Sequence record: MG589383
DNA from: Shigella phage phi25-307
Reading direction: 5' to 3' (one strand)
Length of the DNA: 64,000 nucleotides
A program made the translations under genes and the position numbers. The notes below the pieces were generated by a model, which searched no databases, had not been told where the DNA came from, and saw only the letters and a program-made list of their open reading frames with translations. Shown here in pieces: positions 2,806 to 36,024 of the stretch (position 1 is the stretch's first letter; every line of letters starts with the position of its first letter).

Positions 2806-2993
2806 TAATCCACAATCGGGAGCAAAGTACGATAAACTTCAAAATTAGGGCCTTTTTCGTACCCATTAACGTTATCTACGAAAACCCGATACGAATTTTC
2901 ATTAGGAAAATCTAATATAATCTGAGAGCAAGAGGTGGAAACATCTCCACCATCCTTCTTAGCTACAATAACTGTTTCTAAATAAGCTTTCAT
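2805..2993 (-). CDS. Hypothetical protein, 62 aa
   Basis: Start trimmed to the ATG overlapping the ligase stop (TAATG at 2991-2995); ends at the terminator hairpin. Confidence 0.45.
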   Translation of the reverse strand: MKAYLETVIVAKKDGGDVSTSCSQIILDFPNENSYRVFVDNVNGYEKGPNFEVYRTLLPIVD

Positions 2994-4486
2994 TATAAAC
3001 CTGTCTGGGACCACGGTCCAAATACGTCTTCAAACGAATCCGCTTCTGTTTTATCAAAACGGAACCCTTTAATAATTGGAAGGAAAATACCTACAGTACC
3101 TTCACGGCCTTTAGAATGAACCCAACCATTACATTCACAATCAGCGATACGTCCAATTAATTTACCTTCACGAGCTTCGGTCATTAATCGTTCACGGTCT
3201 AAATCATGACGCTCGTCTAAAGGAATAAGAACCTTTACACCGTCAACTGTTTTATGAGTTGTATCTTTAAACCCTGAACCACAATCGGTTGTAATACGAC
3301 GACAACGTGATACGAGTTCGACACCACCTAATTTGTTAGGGTCTTTAGAGTGTTCATAGTATCCTACAACTTCTAAAGCGATATCAATAACTTCTTTAAA
3401 TTTAATTAGGTTCTTAGAGCGTTTGTTTTCCCAATATGAATCACGGTTTTTAAGGATAATACCTTCAAGACCTTGGTCAACATATTTTTTATAAACTACT
3501 TTAGCTTCGTCAAGATTACGAACTAACTGATTTTCAATTGGTTCAATTCGCTTAAAGCCTTCAGCCATATTTTCAAGAGCAGCAAAACGAACATCGTATT
3601 TCTGACCTTTAATTTTGCCGTCAGAATAGACTTCATCTAAAGGAACATAGTCCCAGGCTTGAAGAACCATACCTTCCGCTTCTTTAGGAGAAATAGTCCC
3701 TTGAAGAGATTTATTTGCTAAACCATTTGAAGTGCTACGGTCTGCAACTTGTACTTCTTCGGATTCTTCATTATCACCAAATAAGAACGACAGGTCATTT
3801 CCTGAGCTCACAGCCTTTTTAATATCGAATGAATGATAAACTAATTCACCGTCGATTAAAACCCCATTAGGGTGTCTTTCACGAGCTTCTTTAGTCATTT
3901 CCATTAGTTCATCCGCTAATAGAGTAAGACCATGGTATTCGTTACCAGCACGAGAAAAGAATTGAACACCATCATCGCGAACTTCAGCGAAACAACGAGC
4001 ACCATCTGCTTTTAATTGGGCAAATGCGGGCCATTTAATATTTTTAGTAATCAATTTCTCATCATATGCAGATGCTAACATCTGTGGTTGCAATTGAATA
4101 AGTCCAGGCCACACCTTATTCGCGATAGACACTGAAGCACCTACTTCAAGGTCGCGCATCATTACACGACGAAGGACTTCTACATCATCAGGTTTACCAT
4201 CAGCGATATAACCCATGAGCTCTTTAATTGCAGCATTACCGGTGAGTTTACGAGTGGCTAATGTGAACTCAATAAAATCCAACATGTCATCTAATTCAAG
4301 AAGACCATATGCTTGAGACCTTTCACCCGGTCCTGGCCATTTCTTAATATAATACTGGATACCACGTGCATATGTTAAACGATACACACGTTCAAGTAAT
4401 TTGTTGTCCTTATTTTTCTTAAGGATTTCTTGTTTTGTTTTAGTAGAACCGATCGCAGCTATTTGGTTTAAAATATCTAAAATCAT
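2993..4486 (-). CDS. 30: ATP-dependent DNA ligase, 497 aa
   Basis: Adenylation motif KADGAR; N-terminal region closely resembles T4 gp30 as remembered; size and position between alt and rIII match T4. Confidence 0.92.
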   Translation of the reverse strand: MILDILNQIAAIGSTKTKQEILKKNKDNKLLERVYRLTYARGIQYYIKKWPGPGERSQAYGLLELDDMLDFIEFTLATRKLTGNAAIKELMGYIADGKPDDVEVLRRVMMRDLEVGASVSIANKVWPGLIQLQPQMLASAYDEKLITKNIKWPAFAQLKADGARCFAEVRDDGVQFFSRAGNEYHGLTLLADELMEMTKEARERHPNGVLIDGELVYHSFDIKKAVSSGNDLSFLFGDNEESEEVQVADRSTSNGLANKSLQGTISPKEAEGMVLQAWDYVPLDEVYSDGKIKGQKYDVRFAALENMAEGFKRIEPIENQLVRNLDEAKVVYKKYVDQGLEGIILKNRDSYWENKRSKNLIKFKEVIDIALEVVGYYEHSKDPNKLGGVELVSRCRRITTDCGSGFKDTTHKTVDGVKVLIPLDERHDLDRERLMTEAREGKLIGRIADCECNGWVHSKGREGTVGIFLPIIKGFRFDKTEADSFEDVFGPWSQTGL

Positions 4487-4752
4487 TTGATGTCCTCGAT
4501 TTTGGTTACGGTTCTATTATAAGCCACTTCATCTAGAAGCGATTTCAGCGTTTTCTGATAAGTGGTAATCCATTTACCGAGACCTTCAACATAATATTCT
4601 GAAATGTAGATGAACCCTTGTTCAACACACTCTTTAAATATTTCTGCGTCTTTTACTGAACGAAACATTGGCCAGTCTCGAAAGAACATGTTAACGTGAC
4701 CGTAGTCACGCGTTGTGTTTTTGCCATCTGTAATATCATGAACTACAAACAT
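4483..4752 (-). CDS. Hypothetical protein, 89 aa (30.1 position)
   Basis: ORF with ATGA overlap onto the ligase start; no recognisable motif. Confidence 0.5.
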   Translation of the reverse strand: MFVVHDITDGKNTTRDYGHVNMFFRDWPMFRSVKDAEIFKECVEQGFIYISEYYVEGLGKWITTYQKTLKSLLDEVAYNRTVTKIEDIK

Positions 4753-4761
4753 AATTAACCC

Positions 4762-5586
4762 TTAACAATTTGTAGACCAAGTCCATTTGGACGAATCTAA
4801 AGGAAAGTTTTGAATCGTCCACCATGGCTGCATATCGGTTGGTCCTGGGGTTCGCCAGGTATATGGAGTACGTGTTGTCGAGGGGCCACCAATTTGATTA
4901 GGCCATGCACCTGGACTTGTTGTACCAGATTCTTTAAGCAAATCCGCCAATCGTTTTAAAAGGTCTTCACGATCTGAATCTGAATTATGCTCGGGTGGAA
5001 CCAAACGAGATTCAATATCATCCCACGTGTGTACACGTTGTGCAGTACGAGGAATGGCATCACGTTCACCACGAGCCAACCAATAAATCGGTACATTAAG
5101 AATTTCTGCTGCATGGTCACAATGATGAGCTAAATCGTCAACGTAACAAATCACGTTATATTTTGTTTTAGCTAGTTCGAATAATTGTTCCTTTGAAGAA
5201 TCATGACCACACATCATTACTTCAGAGAAAGCGCCTGGGAACAAAGCATTCAAATTAAATTGTCTATTCAATCGAGCATCAATTGAATCACCTAGCGCCG
5301 TCACGGCTACAAAATTATAGTCTTCTTTTAGTTTATTGATAACTCGAAGAGCATCCGAATAAGGCGCTAAGTAACGAATAAAATCAGAGCTATTATATTT
5401 TTCTATTAATTGTTTACCAAGGTTATCGTCGGTATTGAACAGTTTACCAGGAGAAATAAATTTTTCGTCCTGAATCATTTTTAAAATATGTTCTAATGGA
5501 AGATTATATTTTTGGGCAAAATAAGGAAGTCCAGATTGCCAGCTTAAACATACACCATCAATATCAGTCAAAATAGTAGGTTTCAT
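4762..5586 (-). CDS. HAD-superfamily phosphatase-like protein with a low-complexity P/T/W-rich C-terminal tail, 274 aa (30.2 position)
   Basis: HAD motif I DIDGV near the N-terminus, later VTALG and YVDDL motifs; last ~70 aa are Pro/Thr/Trp-rich; ATGA overlap with the upstream NADAR gene. Confidence 0.5.
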   Translation of the reverse strand: MKPTILTDIDGVCLSWQSGLPYFAQKYNLPLEHILKMIQDEKFISPGKLFNTDDNLGKQLIEKYNSSDFIRYLAPYSDALRVINKLKEDYNFVAVTALGDSIDARLNRQFNLNALFPGAFSEVMMCGHDSSKEQLFELAKTKYNVICYVDDLAHHCDHAAEILNVPIYWLARGERDAIPRTAQRVHTWDDIESRLVPPEHNSDSDREDLLKRLADLLKESGTTSPGAWPNQIGGPSTTRTPYTWRTPGPTDMQPWWTIQNFPLDSSKWTWSTNC

Positions 5587-6050
5587 AAAGAGTCTCTTAA
5601 TAGGTTTAACACATCAATAAATTCAGCTTCGGTTAGTATTGTATCATCTTTTGTTAGACCGCTAGCCATGCTGTGCTTCAAAATTTTTCCTTTAGAGGCT
5701 TGTAAGGCATCACGAAACCCCTTGTTTTGGATCGCGGCTTCAAAATATGCATTTGTGTATAATTCTTTCCACGCTTCGGAGTATCTTGAAAATGGAACTC
5801 CTAACCAGAAGAGAGTTCCACGGTCCTGAGCTCTTGCATAAGACCTTCCAGCTTGCTGTGCAGCCAATCCAGACATCCCAAATATGCGTCTTTGTTGTTC
5901 AACATTTTTCACCTTACATCCTTGGAGAAATCCTTCAAGTCCTCCGAATTGAATACCATCCATAACGAAAGGCCATTGAGCAAAGTTACTTAATGCACAT
6001 GACGGCCATTTGAAATTGCTTCTTATTTCTAATTCAGACATCTTTAACAC
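5583..6050 (-). CDS. NADAR / YbiA-like domain protein, 155 aa (30.3 position)
   Basis: Motif LSNFAQWPFVMDGIQF...EGFLQGCK matches the FSNFAAWP...DG...E.YFQA.KF core of E. coli YbiA as remembered. Confidence 0.6.
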   Translation of the reverse strand: MLKMSELEIRSNFKWPSCALSNFAQWPFVMDGIQFGGLEGFLQGCKVKNVEQQRRIFGMSGLAAQQAGRSYARAQDRGTLFWLGVPFSRYSEAWKELYTNAYFEAAIQNKGFRDALQASKGKILKHSMASGLTKDDTILTEAEFIDVLNLLRDSL

Positions 6051-13932: not shown

Positions 13933-14213
13933 TTTTCCTCTTTTAAACCACTACGATAATAACATATCATAGTCTTCTGGTCATGTACATATCTTTTTAC
14001 ATCGTTTAACCAGATACGAAATTCTTGAGAGTCTTCAAACGGCATTCCAACCCACGGATTACCATCAATAACCTTTACTTGCCATTTCTGGTTATATTCA
14101 ACAATAGATTCAGGCCATGGCGGATGTAAAGTTTCTTTAGGGCTTAAGGGCACATCCTGGGCACATCCAGCCAAAATACTAATAGATAATACAACTGCGG
14201 TTAATTTAATCAT
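13923..14213 (-). CDS. Predicted lipoprotein, 96 aa
   Basis: N-terminus MIKLTAVVLSISILAGCAQ: signal peptide with lipobox LAGC. Confidence 0.55.
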   Translation of the reverse strand: MIKLTAVVLSISILAGCAQDVPLSPKETLHPPWPESIVEYNQKWQVKVIDGNPWVGMPFEDSQEFRIWLNDVKRYVHDQKTMICYYRSGLKEEKCQ

Positions 14214-30000: not shown

Positions 30001-30894
30001 ACATCTAACCACTTTTATTCACAACGGGATAACCTTGGTAATATTACTTTCAGCATCAACGGTACAGTTCGGCCGATTAATGTTAATGCATCCGGAACAT
30101 TGAATGCTAATGGTGCGGCAACATTTGGACGTTCGGTGACAGCACAGGGTGAATTTATAACCTATAGTGCAAACGCATTCAGAGCAATTAGTGGTAATTA
30201 CGGATTCTTTATTCGTAATGATGCTGCTAATACCTATTTTATGCTTACTGCATCAGGTGATCAGACTGGCGGATTTAATGGATTACGTCCTTTAGCTATT
30301 AATAATGCATCCGGCCAAGTAACGATTGGTGAAGGCTTAATCATTGCCAAAGGTGCTACTATAAATTCAGGTGGTTTAACTGTTAACTCGAGAATTCGTT
30401 CTCATGGTTCTAAAACTGCTGATTTATACACTCGTGCTCCTACTGCTGATACAGTCGGATTCTGGTCAATCGATATTAACGATTCAGCCACTTATAACCA
30501 GTTCCCGGGTTATTTTAAAATGGTTGAAAAAACTAATGAAGTGACTGGACTTCCATACTTAGAACGTGGCGAAGAAGTTAAATCTCCTGGTACACTGACT
30601 CAGTTTGGTAACACACTTGATTCGCTTTACCAAGATTGGATTACTTATCCAACAACTCCAGAAGCACGTACAACCCGTTGGACACGTACATGGCAGAAAA
30701 CTAAAAATTCTTGGTCGAGTTTTGTTCAGGTATTTGATGGTGGAAACCCTCCTCAACCTTCTGATATTGGTGCTTTACCTTCTGATAATGCAACAATCGG
30801 AAACTTGACAATAAGAGATTTCTTAAGGATTGGTAACGTCCGCATTATTCCAGACCCTGTGAATAAATCTGTTAAATTCGAGTGGATTGAATAA
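27019..30894 (+). CDS. 34: Long tail fibre proximal subunit gp34, 1291 aa
   Basis: First gene of the plus-strand late operon; size close to T4 gp34 (about 1289 aa); repeated ...TPKKL/TPETL... motifs in the shaft region. Confidence 0.9.
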   Translation: MADIKRKFRAEDGLDAGGDKIVNVALADRTVGTDGVNVDFLVQENTVQVYDSTRGYNKGFVVLYDNRLYQAINDIVSPSGAFNLLQWRTVRTDAQWITVASGTYQLSSGESISVNTAAGNDMVFTLPSTPVDGDTVVLADIGGRTGTVKVQINASVQSILNFRGEQVRSVLMTRPRSQLVFVFSNRLWQMYIIDYGKESITVTPAAPYQAQANDFIVRRFTSAAPINITLPRNANNGDIISLVDLDKLNPLYHTIVKTFDDTTSIGEVGTHIAEGRNDSDAFFVFDAANSLWRIWEGDQKSRLRIIRADSNIRPNEEVLIFGTNNAATGTINLTLPTGILSGDTVKISMNYMRKGQTVKIKAAEGDTIASSVALLQFPKRSEYPPDAQWVSVTELEFNGTTSYVPVLELSYIEDTVAGTRYWVVQQNVPTVERVDAGTDATRARLGVIALATQAQANVDFENSPAKEVAITPETLANRTATEARRGIAKIATTAQVNQNSTASFVDDTIVTPKKLNERTATETRRGLAEIATQAETDAGLDDTTIITPKKLQARQGSETLSGIVKYVSTTSATPAETRGAAGTNVYNKTVNNLTISPKALDQYKATYAQQGAVILAIDSEVIAGQSQSGYSHAVVTPETLHKKTSTDGRIGLIEIATQAETNAGTDYTRAVTPKTLNDRRATEGLSGIAEIATQVEFDTGTDDTRISTPLKIKTHFDSSDRTSVNSDSGLIEEGTLWNHYTLDISKANETQRGTLRVATQAESNAGTLDDVLITPKKLLGTKSTETSEGVIKVATQSETVTGTSANTAVSPKNLKWIVQSEPTWAATTAIRGFVKTSSGSITFVGNDTVGSTQNLELYEKNSYAVSPYELNRVLANYLPLKAKAADANLLDGLDSSQFIRRDIAQTVNGSLTLTQQTNLSAPLVSSSTATFGGSVSANSTLTISNTGASTRLIFEKGPQTGNNPAQAMNIRVWGNQFAGGSDTSRATIFEVGDETSNHFYSQRDNLGNITFSINGTVRPINVNASGTLNANGAATFGRSVTAQGEFITYSANAFRAISGNYGFFIRNDAANTYFMLTASGDQTGGFNGLRPLAINNASGQVTIGEGLIIAKGATINSGGLTVNSRIRSHGSKTADLYTRAPTADTVGFWSIDINDSATYNQFPGYFKMVEKTNEVTGLPYLERGEEVKSPGTLTQFGNTLDSLYQDWITYPTTPEARTTRWTRTWQKTKNSWSSFVQVFDGGNPPQPSDIGALPSDNATIGNLTIRDFLRIGNVRIIPDPVNKSVKFEWIE

Positions 30895-35700: not shown

Positions 35701-36024
35701 TTCTATGATGGATACAATAGTGCTGGTCCAAATGGCAACGCTAAAATCACTGGAACCGTGAGTGGTGCTACTGCATCGTCGAATATGGCCAAAACTTCTT
35801 CAGACGGTGCCCACACCCATAGTTGGTCTGGTACTACTAGCACCACAGGTAACCATGCCCACACCGTAGGTATTGGCGCCCATACTCACACCGTAGGTAT
35901 TGGCGCTCACACCCATTCGGTTGCAATTGGTTCACATGGTCATACAATAACTGTAAATGCCACAGGAAATACAGAAAACACAGTTAAAAACGTTGCTTTT
36001 AACTATATCGTTCGTTTAGCATAA
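32767..36024 (+). CDS. 37: Long tail fibre distal subunit / receptor-binding protein gp37, 1085 aa
   Basis: Large Gly/Ser/Thr-rich fibre protein ending in a His-box tip (GNHNHT, GAHRHA, GAHTHS, GNHAHT, GAHTHT, GAHTHS, GSHGHT) and the T4-like C-terminus NYIVRLA. Confidence 0.9.
35515..35592 (+). repeat. In-frame tandem 30-nt coding repeat in the gp37 tip ([11 protein letters not shown])
   Basis: GGTACTAAAACCACTTCTAGTTTTGATTAC / GGTAGCAAAACGACTTCAAGCTTTGATTAT, then a partial third copy. Confidence 0.7.
35866..35919 (+). repeat. In-frame tandem 27-nt coding repeat in the gp37 tip ([10 protein letters not shown], His-box)
   Basis: GTAGGTATTGGCGCCCATACTCACACC / GTAGGTATTGGCGCTCACACCCATTCG. Confidence 0.7.

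What the first reader, a model, noticed from the sequence alone, without database searches (positions are those of the whole stretch)
4762..5000. HAD phosphatase-like protein ends in an 80-aa Pro/Thr/Trp-rich low-complexity tail
The C-terminal segment ...SGTTSPGAWPNQIGGPSTTRTPYTWRTPGPTDMQPWWTIQNFPLDSSKWTWSTNC is unlike the rest of the protein. It may be a disordered linker or interaction tail, or may signal a frameshift, sequencing error or overlapping gene.
Basis: seen in the sequence. Interest (0 to 1): 0.3.

Follow-up and report, generated by a model that had tools for sequence, protein, structure and literature searches.

The report
Disordered Trp/Pro-rich tail of gp30.2
The odd Pro/Thr/Trp-rich end of this phage phosphatase-like protein is the genuine, in-frame, probably disordered C-terminal tail of the T4-family protein gp30.2, found unchanged in about 140 sequenced relatives, so it is an ordinary feature of unknown role and not an error.

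Summary
The window comes from an RB69-like (Mosigvirus) T-even phage. ORF 4762..5586 (-), 274 aa, is the homologue of T4 gp30.2. It is a HAD-fold enzyme whose closest solved structures are 5'(3')-deoxyribonucleotidases, and it lies between 30.3 (NADAR/AdfN) and 30.1/DNA ligase.

The composition bias is real but covers 54 aa, not 80. Residues 221-274 (nt 4765-4926) are T 20%, P 15%, S 11% and W 11%. Residues 192-220 are an acidic linker plus a confidently predicted helix.

The tail is not a frameshift, a sequencing error or an overlapping gene:
- The same ending is present in 141 phage records.
- Variation falls mostly on third codon positions, and dN/dS is 0.08-0.31.
- An in-frame 9-nt indel is tolerated.
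- Only the annotated frame matches the tails of other genera.
- The antisense ORF is broken in RB69.

AlphaFold gives pLDDT 41-56 for residues 221-274, and similarly low values for the T4-type tail. No Pfam or PDB match was found, and the tail appears in no other protein context.

The tail evolves fast. Mosigviruses carry two alternative 3' ends, have lost the 'GTGIEYLxxQPT' motif kept by other genera, and include one natural nonsense allele.

The most likely role, which is inferred and not shown, is a disordered partner-binding tail carrying a short motif, W-x-x-PGP-x-D-x-x-PW. Interest is low.

The parts
4762..5586 (-). Gene 30.2 homologue: 274-aa HAD-like protein, including the stop codon at 4762-4764
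   Evidence: ORF list. phrog_420 E=1.4e-77. tblastn finds 1437 phage records; T2, SP18 and RB69 annotate it as gp30.2. It is 99.3% identical to the 'HAD-like protein' of phage 348Ecol098PP.
5002..5586 (-). HAD catalytic core with a helical cap insertion (aa 1-195)
   Evidence: AF2 pLDDT mostly above 90. The best Foldseek matches are cdN/mdN 5'(3')-deoxyribonucleotidases 2jao and 2i7d. D8, D10, K132, D150 and D151 are invariant.
4975..5013 (-). Acidic linker ESRLVPPEHNSDS (aa 192-204)
   Evidence: AF2 shows coil here, with block pLDDT of about 75-85. Length and sequence vary between genera.
4927..4974 (-). Amphipathic helix DREDLLKRLADLLKES (aa 205-220). It is probably a structured extension of the core, not low complexity.
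   Evidence: AF2 predicts helix 203-220, with pLDDT 92 for block 211-220. The equivalent helix 207-220 appears in the T4-type model. A helix-like segment is present in all group-1 tails. Phage G2285 has a nonsense codon at R212 (nt 4951-4953).
4765..4926 (-). Pro/Thr/Ser/Trp-rich, predicted-disordered tail (aa 221-274)
   Evidence: Composition. pLDDT 41-56 and no secondary structure. No Pfam, PDB or PHROG match when searched alone. dN/dS is 0.08-0.31.
4819..4863 (-). Conserved short motif YTWRTPGPTDMQPWW (aa 242-256); pattern W-x(1,2)-[PT]-G-...-P-[WY][WY]
   Evidence: It aligns in frame with T4-type TWRTPGFNPY, P0002 TWRTPGIDHTRPYW, P0024 PWRTTGPSDWEQWY and Klebsiella-phage KKWVNPGPSDLKPWY. 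The pattern occurs in 13 of 55 tail-bearing cluster representatives and in none of their cores.
4870..4878 (-). In-frame 9-nt indel polymorphism (window ...PSTTRTPY... vs RB69 ...PS---NPY...)
   Evidence: Codon and DNA alignments of Mosigvirus genes.
4765..4824 (-). Variable 3' terminal segment, 'A-type' ending WWTIQNFPLDSSKWTWSTNC
   Evidence: The A-type ending is in 141 phage records. The alternative B-type ending (HWRYTNVGEHPVPPYWAVPQGYGTTKG) is in 7. The two DNAs cannot be aligned, and they re-join at TAAGGGTTAATTATG, which is read in different frames.

Best explanation
The segment is the authentic C-terminus of the gp30.2 homologue of an RB69-like T-even phage. The protein has three parts. 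The first is a HAD-fold phosphatase core with a helical cap, resembling 5'(3')-deoxyribonucleotidases. The second is a short acidic linker and an amphipathic helix that probably packs on the core. The third is a roughly 54-residue Pro/Thr/Ser/Trp-rich tail that is intrinsically disordered in the free monomer.

Shown here: the tail is translated in the annotated frame, is kept by purifying selection weaker than on the core, and carries a short aromatic/proline motif (W-x-x-PGP-x-D-x-x-PW-W/Y) shared with the tails of other Tevenvirinae genera.

Inferred, not shown: the tail acts as a flexible tether that docks the enzyme onto a partner through this short linear motif. The partner could be a phage or host protein, or possibly another gp30.2 subunit. 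The tail would not contribute to catalysis.

Its 3' end evolves quickly by indels, motif loss and segment replacement. This behaviour is typical of disordered interaction tails.
For: - Identity and context: phrog_420 E=1.4e-77. The neighbours are Phage_30_3 (NADAR), DUF3045 (30.1) and DNA ligase, the same order as in T2, SP18 and RB69.
- Frame is real: the tail alone hits 149 phage records at 80% coverage or more and 82-99% identity. The A-type end is in 141 records.
- Selection: variable sites by codon position in aa 196-254 are 5/6/16. Pairwise dN/dS is 0.08-0.31, against 0-0.16 in the core. The 9-nt indel is in frame.
- Homology of the tail: only the annotated frame matches other genera's tails. 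E values are 5e-6 for P0002, 4e-5 for P0024 and 5e-5 for the Klebsiella-phage type, against a best of 0.75 for other frames.
- Disorder: AF2 gives pLDDT 41-56 for aa 221-274 and a confident helix at 203-220. The T4-type protein shows the same picture.
- Composition is conserved without sequence conservation: in 55 tail-bearing cluster representatives, tails are 13% P and 4.6% W, against 4.4% and 1.3% in their cores.
- Not a known domain: there is no Pfam or PDB hit. A profile of the tails finds only a gp30.2 fragment among 1.84 billion representatives.
Against: - No partner is known, and no binding or activity was tested. A low pLDDT in a monomer model is only a proxy for disorder.
- The tail may be dispensable. 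About 40 of the roughly 100 homologue clusters lack it (about 200-aa proteins in Acinetobacter, Aeromonas, Shewanella and some Salmonella, Serratia and Pectobacterium phages).
- Phage G2285 carries a nonsense codon at R212 that removes the tail.
- Mosigviruses have lost the 'GTGIEYLxxQPT' motif that is the best-conserved tail element in other genera.
- The motif pattern is found in only 13 of 55 tail-bearing representatives.
- No paper on gp30.2 function was found.
Confidence: 0.6

Rival explanations
1. The tail is a tolerated, essentially functionless extension. It would be a stretch of 3' sequence that drifted into the reading frame and persists because it does no harm. Its bias would reflect drift plus avoidance of aggregation, not partner binding.
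For: Many homologues are tail-less. G2285 has a natural nonsense allele. Two unrelated 3' endings occur inside one genus. The GIEYL motif has been lost. dN/dS is higher than in the core. The tail shows no fold and no family match.
Against: dN/dS stays well below 1 (0.08-0.31), with a third-position excess. The W..PGP.D..PW motif and the Pro/Trp bias persist across genera whose cores are only about 50% identical. The A-type end is 90-100% identical in 138 of 141 records.
Confidence: 0.25
2. The tail is not disordered in vivo. It would fold on oligomerisation, or insert at the membrane interface as other Trp-rich segments do, and so localise or regulate the phosphatase.
For: The tail has 6 Trp in 54 aa, almost no net charge (3 K/R, 2 D/E) and moderate hydropathy. 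A monomer AF2 model cannot show folding in trans.
Against: There is no amphipathic or transmembrane pattern and no predicted secondary structure. At 15% Pro and 31% Ser+Thr, the composition is typical of disorder. The sequence varies strongly between lineages.
Confidence: 0.1
3. An assembly frameshift or sequencing error in this window created a spurious C-terminus.
For: Only the unusual composition and the local GC rise.
Against: The same frame and ending occur in 141 independently deposited genomes, including RB69. Alternative frames contain stops and match nothing. The motif is conserved in frame in other genera.
Confidence: 0.01
4. The odd composition reflects a second gene overlapping the 3' end of 30.2, such as the antisense ORF 4810..4959 or a +1/+2 frame ORF.
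For: A 49-aa TTG-start antisense ORF and a 37-aa same-strand ORF exist in the window.
Against: The antisense ORF is interrupted in RB69, and its length varies from 25 to 69 codons among relatives. Substitutions concentrate on third positions of the 30.2 frame, which are first positions of the antisense frame. No promoter or terminator excess is seen.
Confidence: 0.02

Closest known systems
Bacteriophage T4/T2/RB69 gp30.2 (PHROG 420; 'conserved hypothetical protein')
   Same: It is the same family: about 71% identity to T2 gp30.2 in the alignment, and 91% tail identity to RB69. The position between 30.3 and 30.1/ligase is the same, and so is the architecture of core, helix and aromatic/proline-rich tail.
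   Different: The T4-type tail is longer and keeps the C-terminal 'GGVEYLYNRPT...IFQGAF' element that the window's lineage lacks. The window's last 20 aa (WWTIQNFPLDSSKWTWSTNC) are specific to most Mosigviruses.
5'(3')-deoxyribonucleotidases cdN/mdN (HAD superfamily; PDB 2jao, 2i7d, 1mh9)
   Same: These are the best structural matches to the core (Foldseek E about 1e-7, TM to target 0.62). They have the same DxD nucleophile motif and a helical cap.
   Different: Sequence identity is only 15-18%. Those enzymes are about 195-200 aa and end where the gp30.2 core ends, with no Pro/Trp-rich tail. Substrate was not tested here.
Disordered C-terminal interaction tails of phage and bacterial replication proteins (e.g. 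the acidic C-terminus of SSB/gp32, or the clamp-binding C-terminal peptides of T4/RB69 polymerase). This comparison is from general knowledge and was not tested.
   Same: A short conserved motif sits in an otherwise fast-evolving, unstructured C-terminal extension of a globular protein.
   Different: The composition is aromatic/proline-rich and nearly neutral, not acidic. No clamp- or SSB-type consensus is present in the window's tail. No partner is known.
PWWP and WW domains; Trp/Pro-rich peptides such as indolicidin and tritrpticin. These resemblances are recalled from memory.
   Same: The tail contains 'PWW' and several W/P dipeptides. 'GIEYLNRQPT' in other genera superficially resembles the WW-domain 'G..YY.N..T' pattern.
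   Different: There is no Pfam hit even at E up to 10 and no predicted beta structure. The spacing of the Trp residues does not fit a WW domain. The tail is not cationic. Membership is rejected.

Membership tests
T4 gp30.2 family (PHROG 420) | Significant full-length sequence match to the family profile | tested here: met
   phrog_420 E=1.4e-77, covering residues 1-259 of the protein. tblastn gives 1437 phage records.
T4 gp30.2 family (PHROG 420) | Conserved position between gene 30.3 and genes 30.1/30 (DNA ligase) | tested here: met
   Window order is 30.3 (PF08010), then 30.2, then 30.1 (PF11243), then ligase. The order is the same in T2, SP18, RB69 and HX01.
HAD (haloacid dehalogenase-like) phosphatase superfamily | Motif I DxD nucleophile/acid pair at the end of strand 1 | tested here: met
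   The sequence is D8-I-D10-G. D8 and D10 are invariant in 84 homologues.
HAD (haloacid dehalogenase-like) phosphatase superfamily | Motifs II (T/S), III (K) and IV (DD) | tested here: met
   T96 is nearly invariant. K132, D150 and D151 are invariant. Assignment of these residues to the motifs rests on their order and on the model, not on a structural superposition that I inspected.
HAD (haloacid dehalogenase-like) phosphatase superfamily | Pfam HAD model above the gathering score | tested here: not met
   HAD_2 scores 16 bits against a cut-off of 23.8, E=0.014. Membership therefore rests on the motifs and the fold.
HAD (haloacid dehalogenase-like) phosphatase superfamily | Rossmannoid HAD fold | tested here: met
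   The AF2 core has pLDDT above 90. 86 PDB matches have E of 1e-3 or lower, and all 50 listed are HAD-fold proteins or engineered proteins built on them.
HAD (haloacid dehalogenase-like) phosphatase superfamily | Mg2+-dependent phosphomonoesterase activity | not testable with these tools
   This needs an enzyme assay.
5'(3')-deoxyribonucleotidase (NT5C-type) subfamily | Specific sequence or structure relationship and dNMP substrate preference | tested here: inconclusive
   These are the top Foldseek hits (2jao, E=7.8e-8), and there is a weak phmmer hit (E=0.12). Other HAD subfamilies score almost as well, and substrate was not tested.
Intrinsically disordered region carrying a short linear motif | No stable predicted structure, and a disorder-type composition | tested here: met
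   pLDDT is 41-56 with no DSSP elements for aa 221-274. The T4-type model gives the same picture. The segment is rich in P, S, T and G and poor in I, L, V and M (8% vs 26%). This is a proxy only.
Intrinsically disordered region carrying a short linear motif | A short conserved island within a variable sequence | tested here: met
   W..PGP.D..PW[WY] is conserved across Mosigvirus, P0002, P0024 and the Klebsiella-phage types, while the flanks diverge.
Intrinsically disordered region carrying a short linear motif | Demonstrated binding partner | not testable with these tools
   No interaction data exist, and no literature on gp30.2 was found.
PWWP / WW domains | Match to the domain profile and a beta-rich fold | tested here: not met
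   There are no Pfam hits at E up to 10 for the window, T4-type or Klebsiella-type tails. No strands are predicted.

The most novel reading that the evidence does not exclude
The tail is a fast-evolving interface in a phage-host conflict. Under this reading, the W-x-x-PGP-x-D-x-x-PW motif and the swappable 3' endings (A-type, B-type, GIEYL-type) would target the gp30.2 phosphatase to, or hide it from, a host factor such as a defence system. The gene sits in an accessory cluster next to the anti-DarTG1 NADAR gene 30.3. The different synonymous divergence of tail and core would reflect tail cassettes being exchanged by recombination under diversifying pressure.
Probability: 0.12. Interest if true: 0.5.

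Novelty: already known. Interest (0 to 1): 0.15.

Why it matters
Mainly as a clean-up: this is not an assembly problem, and the ORF call should stand.

Beyond that, gp30.2 is one of the many conserved but uncharacterised T-even accessory proteins. Three points give a small, concrete handle for anyone who studies it:
- The 'tail' is really a structured helix plus a 54-aa disordered segment.
- The disordered segment carries a motif conserved across genera.
- Its 3' end exists in exchangeable variants.

This suggests experiments with tail-deletion and Trp-to-Ala motif mutants, and a tail peptide as pull-down bait. It does not change current understanding of T4-like phages.

Tried and rejected
1. 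Frameshift origin. I translated all six frames of 4700-5100 and ran blastx of the last 180 nt against a database of homologue tails. Only the annotated frame matched.

2. A-type and B-type endings related by a simple frameshift. The DNA alignment shows a possible 1-nt offset right after TGG (TGGACGATTCA vs TGGCGATACA). Beyond that the segments are only about 40% identical (my own hand count from the alignment, not a tool output), so I treat this as segment replacement or divergence, unresolved.

3. Overlapping or antisense gene. Rejected, because RB69 has a stop in it.

4. Known domain in the tail. Pfam at E up to 10, PHROGs and a PDB profile search were all empty for the window's tail.

5. 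Tail as a portable module in other proteins. A profile of 18 tails against 1.84 billion representatives gave one hit, itself a Mosigvirus gp30.2 fragment.

6. Folding of the conserved GIEYL motif onto the core in the T4-type protein. AF2 gives pLDDT below 50 there.

7. Regulatory signals inside the tail-coding DNA. No promoter-like or terminator-like site falls within the tail-coding DNA (4765-4926), and region-wide counts are at shuffle expectation.

8. Literature on gp30.2. Four searches found only the AdfN (30.3) paper, which merely mentions 30.2.

9. IMG/VR scan for more close relatives. It gave only 10 loci, one of them Mosigvirus-like, so the selection analysis rests on nine GenBank genomes.

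10. Clamp-binding or PIP-like C-terminus (T4-type '...NIFQGAF', PM2 '...EIFNGF'). I considered this from memory. It is absent from the window's tail and was not pursued.

Full report
**What is there**

The window is a piece of an RB69-like T-even phage (genus Mosigvirus). On the minus strand the genes run 30.3 (5583..6050), the ORF in question (4762..5586, 274 aa), 30.1 (4483..4752) and DNA ligase gp30 (2993..4486). Gene 30.3 matches Pfam Phage_30_3, the NADAR family, with E=3.8e-69. Gene 30.1 matches DUF3045 with E=1e-26.

The ORF matches PHROG 420, a family of unknown function, at E=1.4e-77 over residues 1-259. tblastn finds it in 1437 phage records. The best is the 'HAD-like protein' of Escherichia phage 348Ecol098PP at 99.3% identity. 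T2, SP18 and RB69 annotate the homologue as gp30.2.

**The observation**

The quoted C-terminal sequence is exactly what the ORF encodes. The last 55 residues are T 20%, P 14.5%, S 10.9% and W 10.9%. The core has 3.6%, 4.1%, 5.6% and 1.5% for the same residues. The binomial tails are 3.5e-6 for T, 1.7e-3 for P and 2e-4 for W. Segments this rich in both W and P are rare in the window: four in all six-frame ORFs of 60 aa or more.

Two corrections apply. The biased part is 54 aa (aa 221-274, nt 4765-4926), not 80. Residues 192-204 are an acidic linker, and residues 205-220 (DREDLLKRLADLLKES) form an amphipathic helix. The bias is compositional, not repetitive: entropy is 3.3-3.7 bits per 40-aa window against a mean of 3.84 in the core. 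The local GC peak (0.49 vs about 0.37) follows from Pro, Gly, Trp and Thr codons.

**The core**

In an alignment of 84 homologues, D8, D10, K132, D150 and D151 are invariant and T96 is nearly so. This is the order expected for HAD motifs I to IV. An AlphaFold2 model built on that alignment has pLDDT above 90 for most of residues 1-195. Its best PDB matches are cytosolic and mitochondrial 5'(3')-deoxyribonucleotidases (2jao E=7.8e-8; also 2i7d and 1mh9), followed by many other HAD enzymes. By sequence alone the link is weak: Pfam HAD_2 scores 16 bits, below the 23.8-bit cut-off, and phmmer to 2jao gives E=0.12. 'HAD phosphatase-like' is therefore justified by motifs and fold. The substrate is unknown.

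**Is the tail an error, a frameshift or another gene? No.**

- The tail alone (78 aa) hits 149 phage records at 80% coverage or more and 82-99% identity.
- The last 29 aa, the 'A-type' end, occur in 141 records, 138 of them at 90% identity or more, including RB69, JS09 and PhAPEC2.
- In nine Mosigvirus genes aligned by codon, variable sites in aa 196-254 fall 5/6/16 on codon positions 1/2/3. Pairwise dN/dS to the window is 0.08-0.31, against 0-0.16 for the core.
- A 9-nt indel (PSTTRTPY vs PS---NPY) keeps the frame.
- A blastx of the last 180 nt against the tails of diverged homologues matches only in the annotated frame. E values are 5e-6 for P0002, 4e-5 for P0024 and 5e-5 for the Klebsiella-phage type, and the best hit in any other frame has E=0.75.
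- The alternative frames contain stops.
- The antisense ORF 4810..4959 is broken in RB69, and its open length varies from 25 to 69 codons.
- No promoter-like or terminator-like site lies in the tail-coding stretch; the counts for the scanned region match the shuffled controls.

**What the tail looks like across the family**

Of the 99 homologue cluster representatives plus the window protein, 55 have a C-terminal extension of at least 40 aa with this kind of composition. 41 are essentially tail-less, about 200-aa proteins from Acinetobacter, Aeromonas, Shewanella and some Salmonella, Serratia and Pectobacterium phages. Four more carry long extensions of other kinds and were excluded from the composition count (P0016, P0065, P0067, P0080). 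The 55 extensions differ greatly in sequence but share a composition: 13% P and 4.6% W in the last 50 aa, against 4.4% and 1.3% in the cores. The window's lineage is the Trp extreme at 12%.

In the group that includes T4, SP18, Mosigvirus and several Klebsiella- and Enterobacter-phage types, the tail has a common layout:
1. a helix;
2. a motif W-x(1,2)-[PT]-G-x-x-D-x-x-P-[WY][WY] (window YTWRTPGPTDMQPWW, T4-type TWRTPGFNPY, Klebsiella type KKWVNPGPSDLKPWY);
3. in most genera, a strongly conserved 'GTGIEYLxxQPT' element close to the C-terminus.

The first motif pattern is found in 13 of 55 tails and the G[IVL]EY element in 16 of 55. Neither occurs in any core. The Mosigvirus proteins lack the GIEYL element.

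**Structure**

AlphaFold2 predicts helix 203-220 with confidence (pLDDT 92 for residues 211-220). It gives nothing for 221-274: pLDDT 41-56 and no secondary structure. The T4-type protein (P0003) behaves the same way, including its GVEYL element at pLDDT about 41-49. Searched alone, the tails have no Pfam hit at E up to 10 and no PDB hit for a profile of 18 tails. The only PHROG hit is to the family's own C-terminal part, and only for the T4 and Klebsiella types. The same profile, searched against 1.84 billion representative proteins, returned a single hit, a 103-aa fragment of a Mosigvirus gp30.2. The tail is therefore not a portable domain seen in other contexts.

**Evolutionary behaviour**

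Inside Mosigvirus there are two alternative endings. The A-type is ...PWWTIQNFPLDSSKWTWSTNC, in 141 records. The B-type is ...PHWRYTNVGEHPVPPYWAVPQGYGTTKG, in 7 records including HX01 and ESCO47. The DNA between the shared upstream GATATGC[AT]GCC and the shared downstream TAAGGGTTAATTATG cannot be aligned convincingly. The downstream block is read in different frames in the two types: TAA is the stop in the window, while HX01 reads AAG GGT TAA.

Synonymous divergence differs between core and tail. RB69 against the window has dS 0.05 in the core and 0.30 in the tail. ESCO47 against the window has about 1.04 in the core and 0.20 in the tail. This points to recombination near the core/tail junction. 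Phage G2285 has a nonsense codon at R212, and the gene is annotated there as two CDS.

**Interpretation**

Shown:
- The tail is real, in frame and selectively maintained.
- It is predicted to be unstructured.
- It carries a short conserved aromatic/proline island.
- It is restricted to gp30.2.

Inferred:
- The tail is an intrinsically disordered tether that binds a partner through that island.
- The preceding helix belongs to the folded body of the protein.

Nothing here identifies the partner or the enzyme's substrate. The main rival is that the tail is a tolerated extension with little function. The evidence for that rival is the many tail-less homologues, the nonsense allele, the loss of the GIEYL element and the swapped endings. 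The evidence against it is the low dN/dS and the conservation of the motif across genera. I put about 0.6 on the interaction-tail reading and 0.25 on the tolerated-extension reading. The remainder goes to folding in trans or membrane association. Error or overlapping-gene explanations get about 0.03 together.

**Comparison with what is known, and novelty**

The protein is a member of the T4 gp30.2 family, by sequence and by gene order. It is a HAD-fold enzyme by motifs and fold, although the Pfam score is sub-threshold. Assignment to the 5'(3')-deoxyribonucleotidase subfamily is only suggested.

The tail works, at best guess, like other disordered C-terminal interaction tails of phage replication and metabolism proteins. 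That analogy comes from general knowledge and shares no sequence. PWWP and WW domains and Trp/Pro-rich peptides were considered and rejected.

I found no paper dealing with gp30.2. The only mention is in the AdfN study of the neighbouring gene 30.3 (PMC11825919). The sequence itself has been in GenBank since the RB69 genome, so as a feature it is already known, and it is of low interest. The small additions made here are the helix/tail boundary, the conserved motif and the exchangeable 3' endings.

Noticed in passing
window 5583-6050 (-), compared with L024 1-312 (RB69): Gene 30.3 (NADAR, AdfN, the published anti-DarTG1 factor) is full length in this window (...TILTEAEFIDVLNLLRDSL*). RB69 carries the published 1-nt T insertion (CTAACTTGAAGC vs CTAACCGAAGC) that truncates it. 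Going by the AdfN paper (PMC11825919), this phage would be expected to resist DarTG1, unlike RB69. The 30.3 stop overlaps the 30.2 start (ATGA).
   Followed up: partly
L031 (MK327933.1, phage vB_EcoM_G2285) 313-1137; equivalent to window 4951-4953: There is a natural nonsense codon at R212 (CGA to TGA) inside the helix of gp30.2, so the record annotates two CDS. It could be a real tail-less allele or a sequencing error in that record.
   Followed up: partly
L025 (HX01) and L026 (ESCO47) vs window 4765-4824: A second, unrelated 3' ending of 30.2 (B-type, ...HWRYTNVGEHPVPPYWAVPQGYGTTKG) occurs in 7 Mosigvirus records. It re-joins the window sequence at TAAGGGTTAATTATG in a different frame. 'EHP...GYG|TTKG' looks like the Klebsiella-phage 'EHPGN...GYG IGTGIEYLNRQPTAK TTIGKV' with the GIEYL element deleted.
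   Followed up: partly
L026 (ESCO47) 901-1737 vs window 4762-5586: Synonymous divergence from the window is about 1.04 in the HAD core but 0.20 in the tail. For RB69, HX01, LNA2 and ATK47 the tail is more diverged (dS 0.19-0.30) than the core (0.04-0.09). This suggests recombination breakpoints near the core/tail junction.
   Followed up: partly
P0016 (302 aa, 3 member sequences): This homologue has a PM2-like, tail-less gp30.2 fused in frame to a gp30.1 (DUF3045, PF11243) domain. It could be a Rosetta-stone hint of a 30.2-30.1 functional link, or a read-through or assembly artefact on a 1.4-kb contig.
   Followed up: no
P0065, P0067 (Yersinia phage phiR1-RT type) and P0080 (347 aa): Some gp30.2 homologues carry quite different C-terminal modules. 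One is a roughly 115-130-aa segment ending ...HPKGFGWVYCSNRKNLEEEYTKRFL. Another is a 152-aa extension ending in a Cys-rich stretch (...CVGCSKEGP...YYCGGAPWCCP).
   Followed up: no
L005 (GiZh, KT184311.1) 1201-2037 and L028 (ATK47, KT184309.1) 313-1128: An intact 30.2 ORF (278 aa and 271 aa) is present but not annotated in these two GenBank records.
   Followed up: yes
window 30634-30753 (+), 14010-14129 (-), 35766-35885 (-): These are the only other 40-aa stretches in six-frame ORFs of 60 aa or more with at least 4 Trp and at least 4 Pro. I did not check whether they lie in real genes.
   Followed up: no
window 4825-4845 (-): An AGGA lies 9 nt upstream of the in-frame ATG of M252 (CCAGGACCAACCGATATG). 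In principle this could start a 23-aa peptide MQPWWTIQNFPLDSSKWTWSTNC. The Met is not conserved outside Mosigvirus, and nothing supports its use.
   Followed up: no
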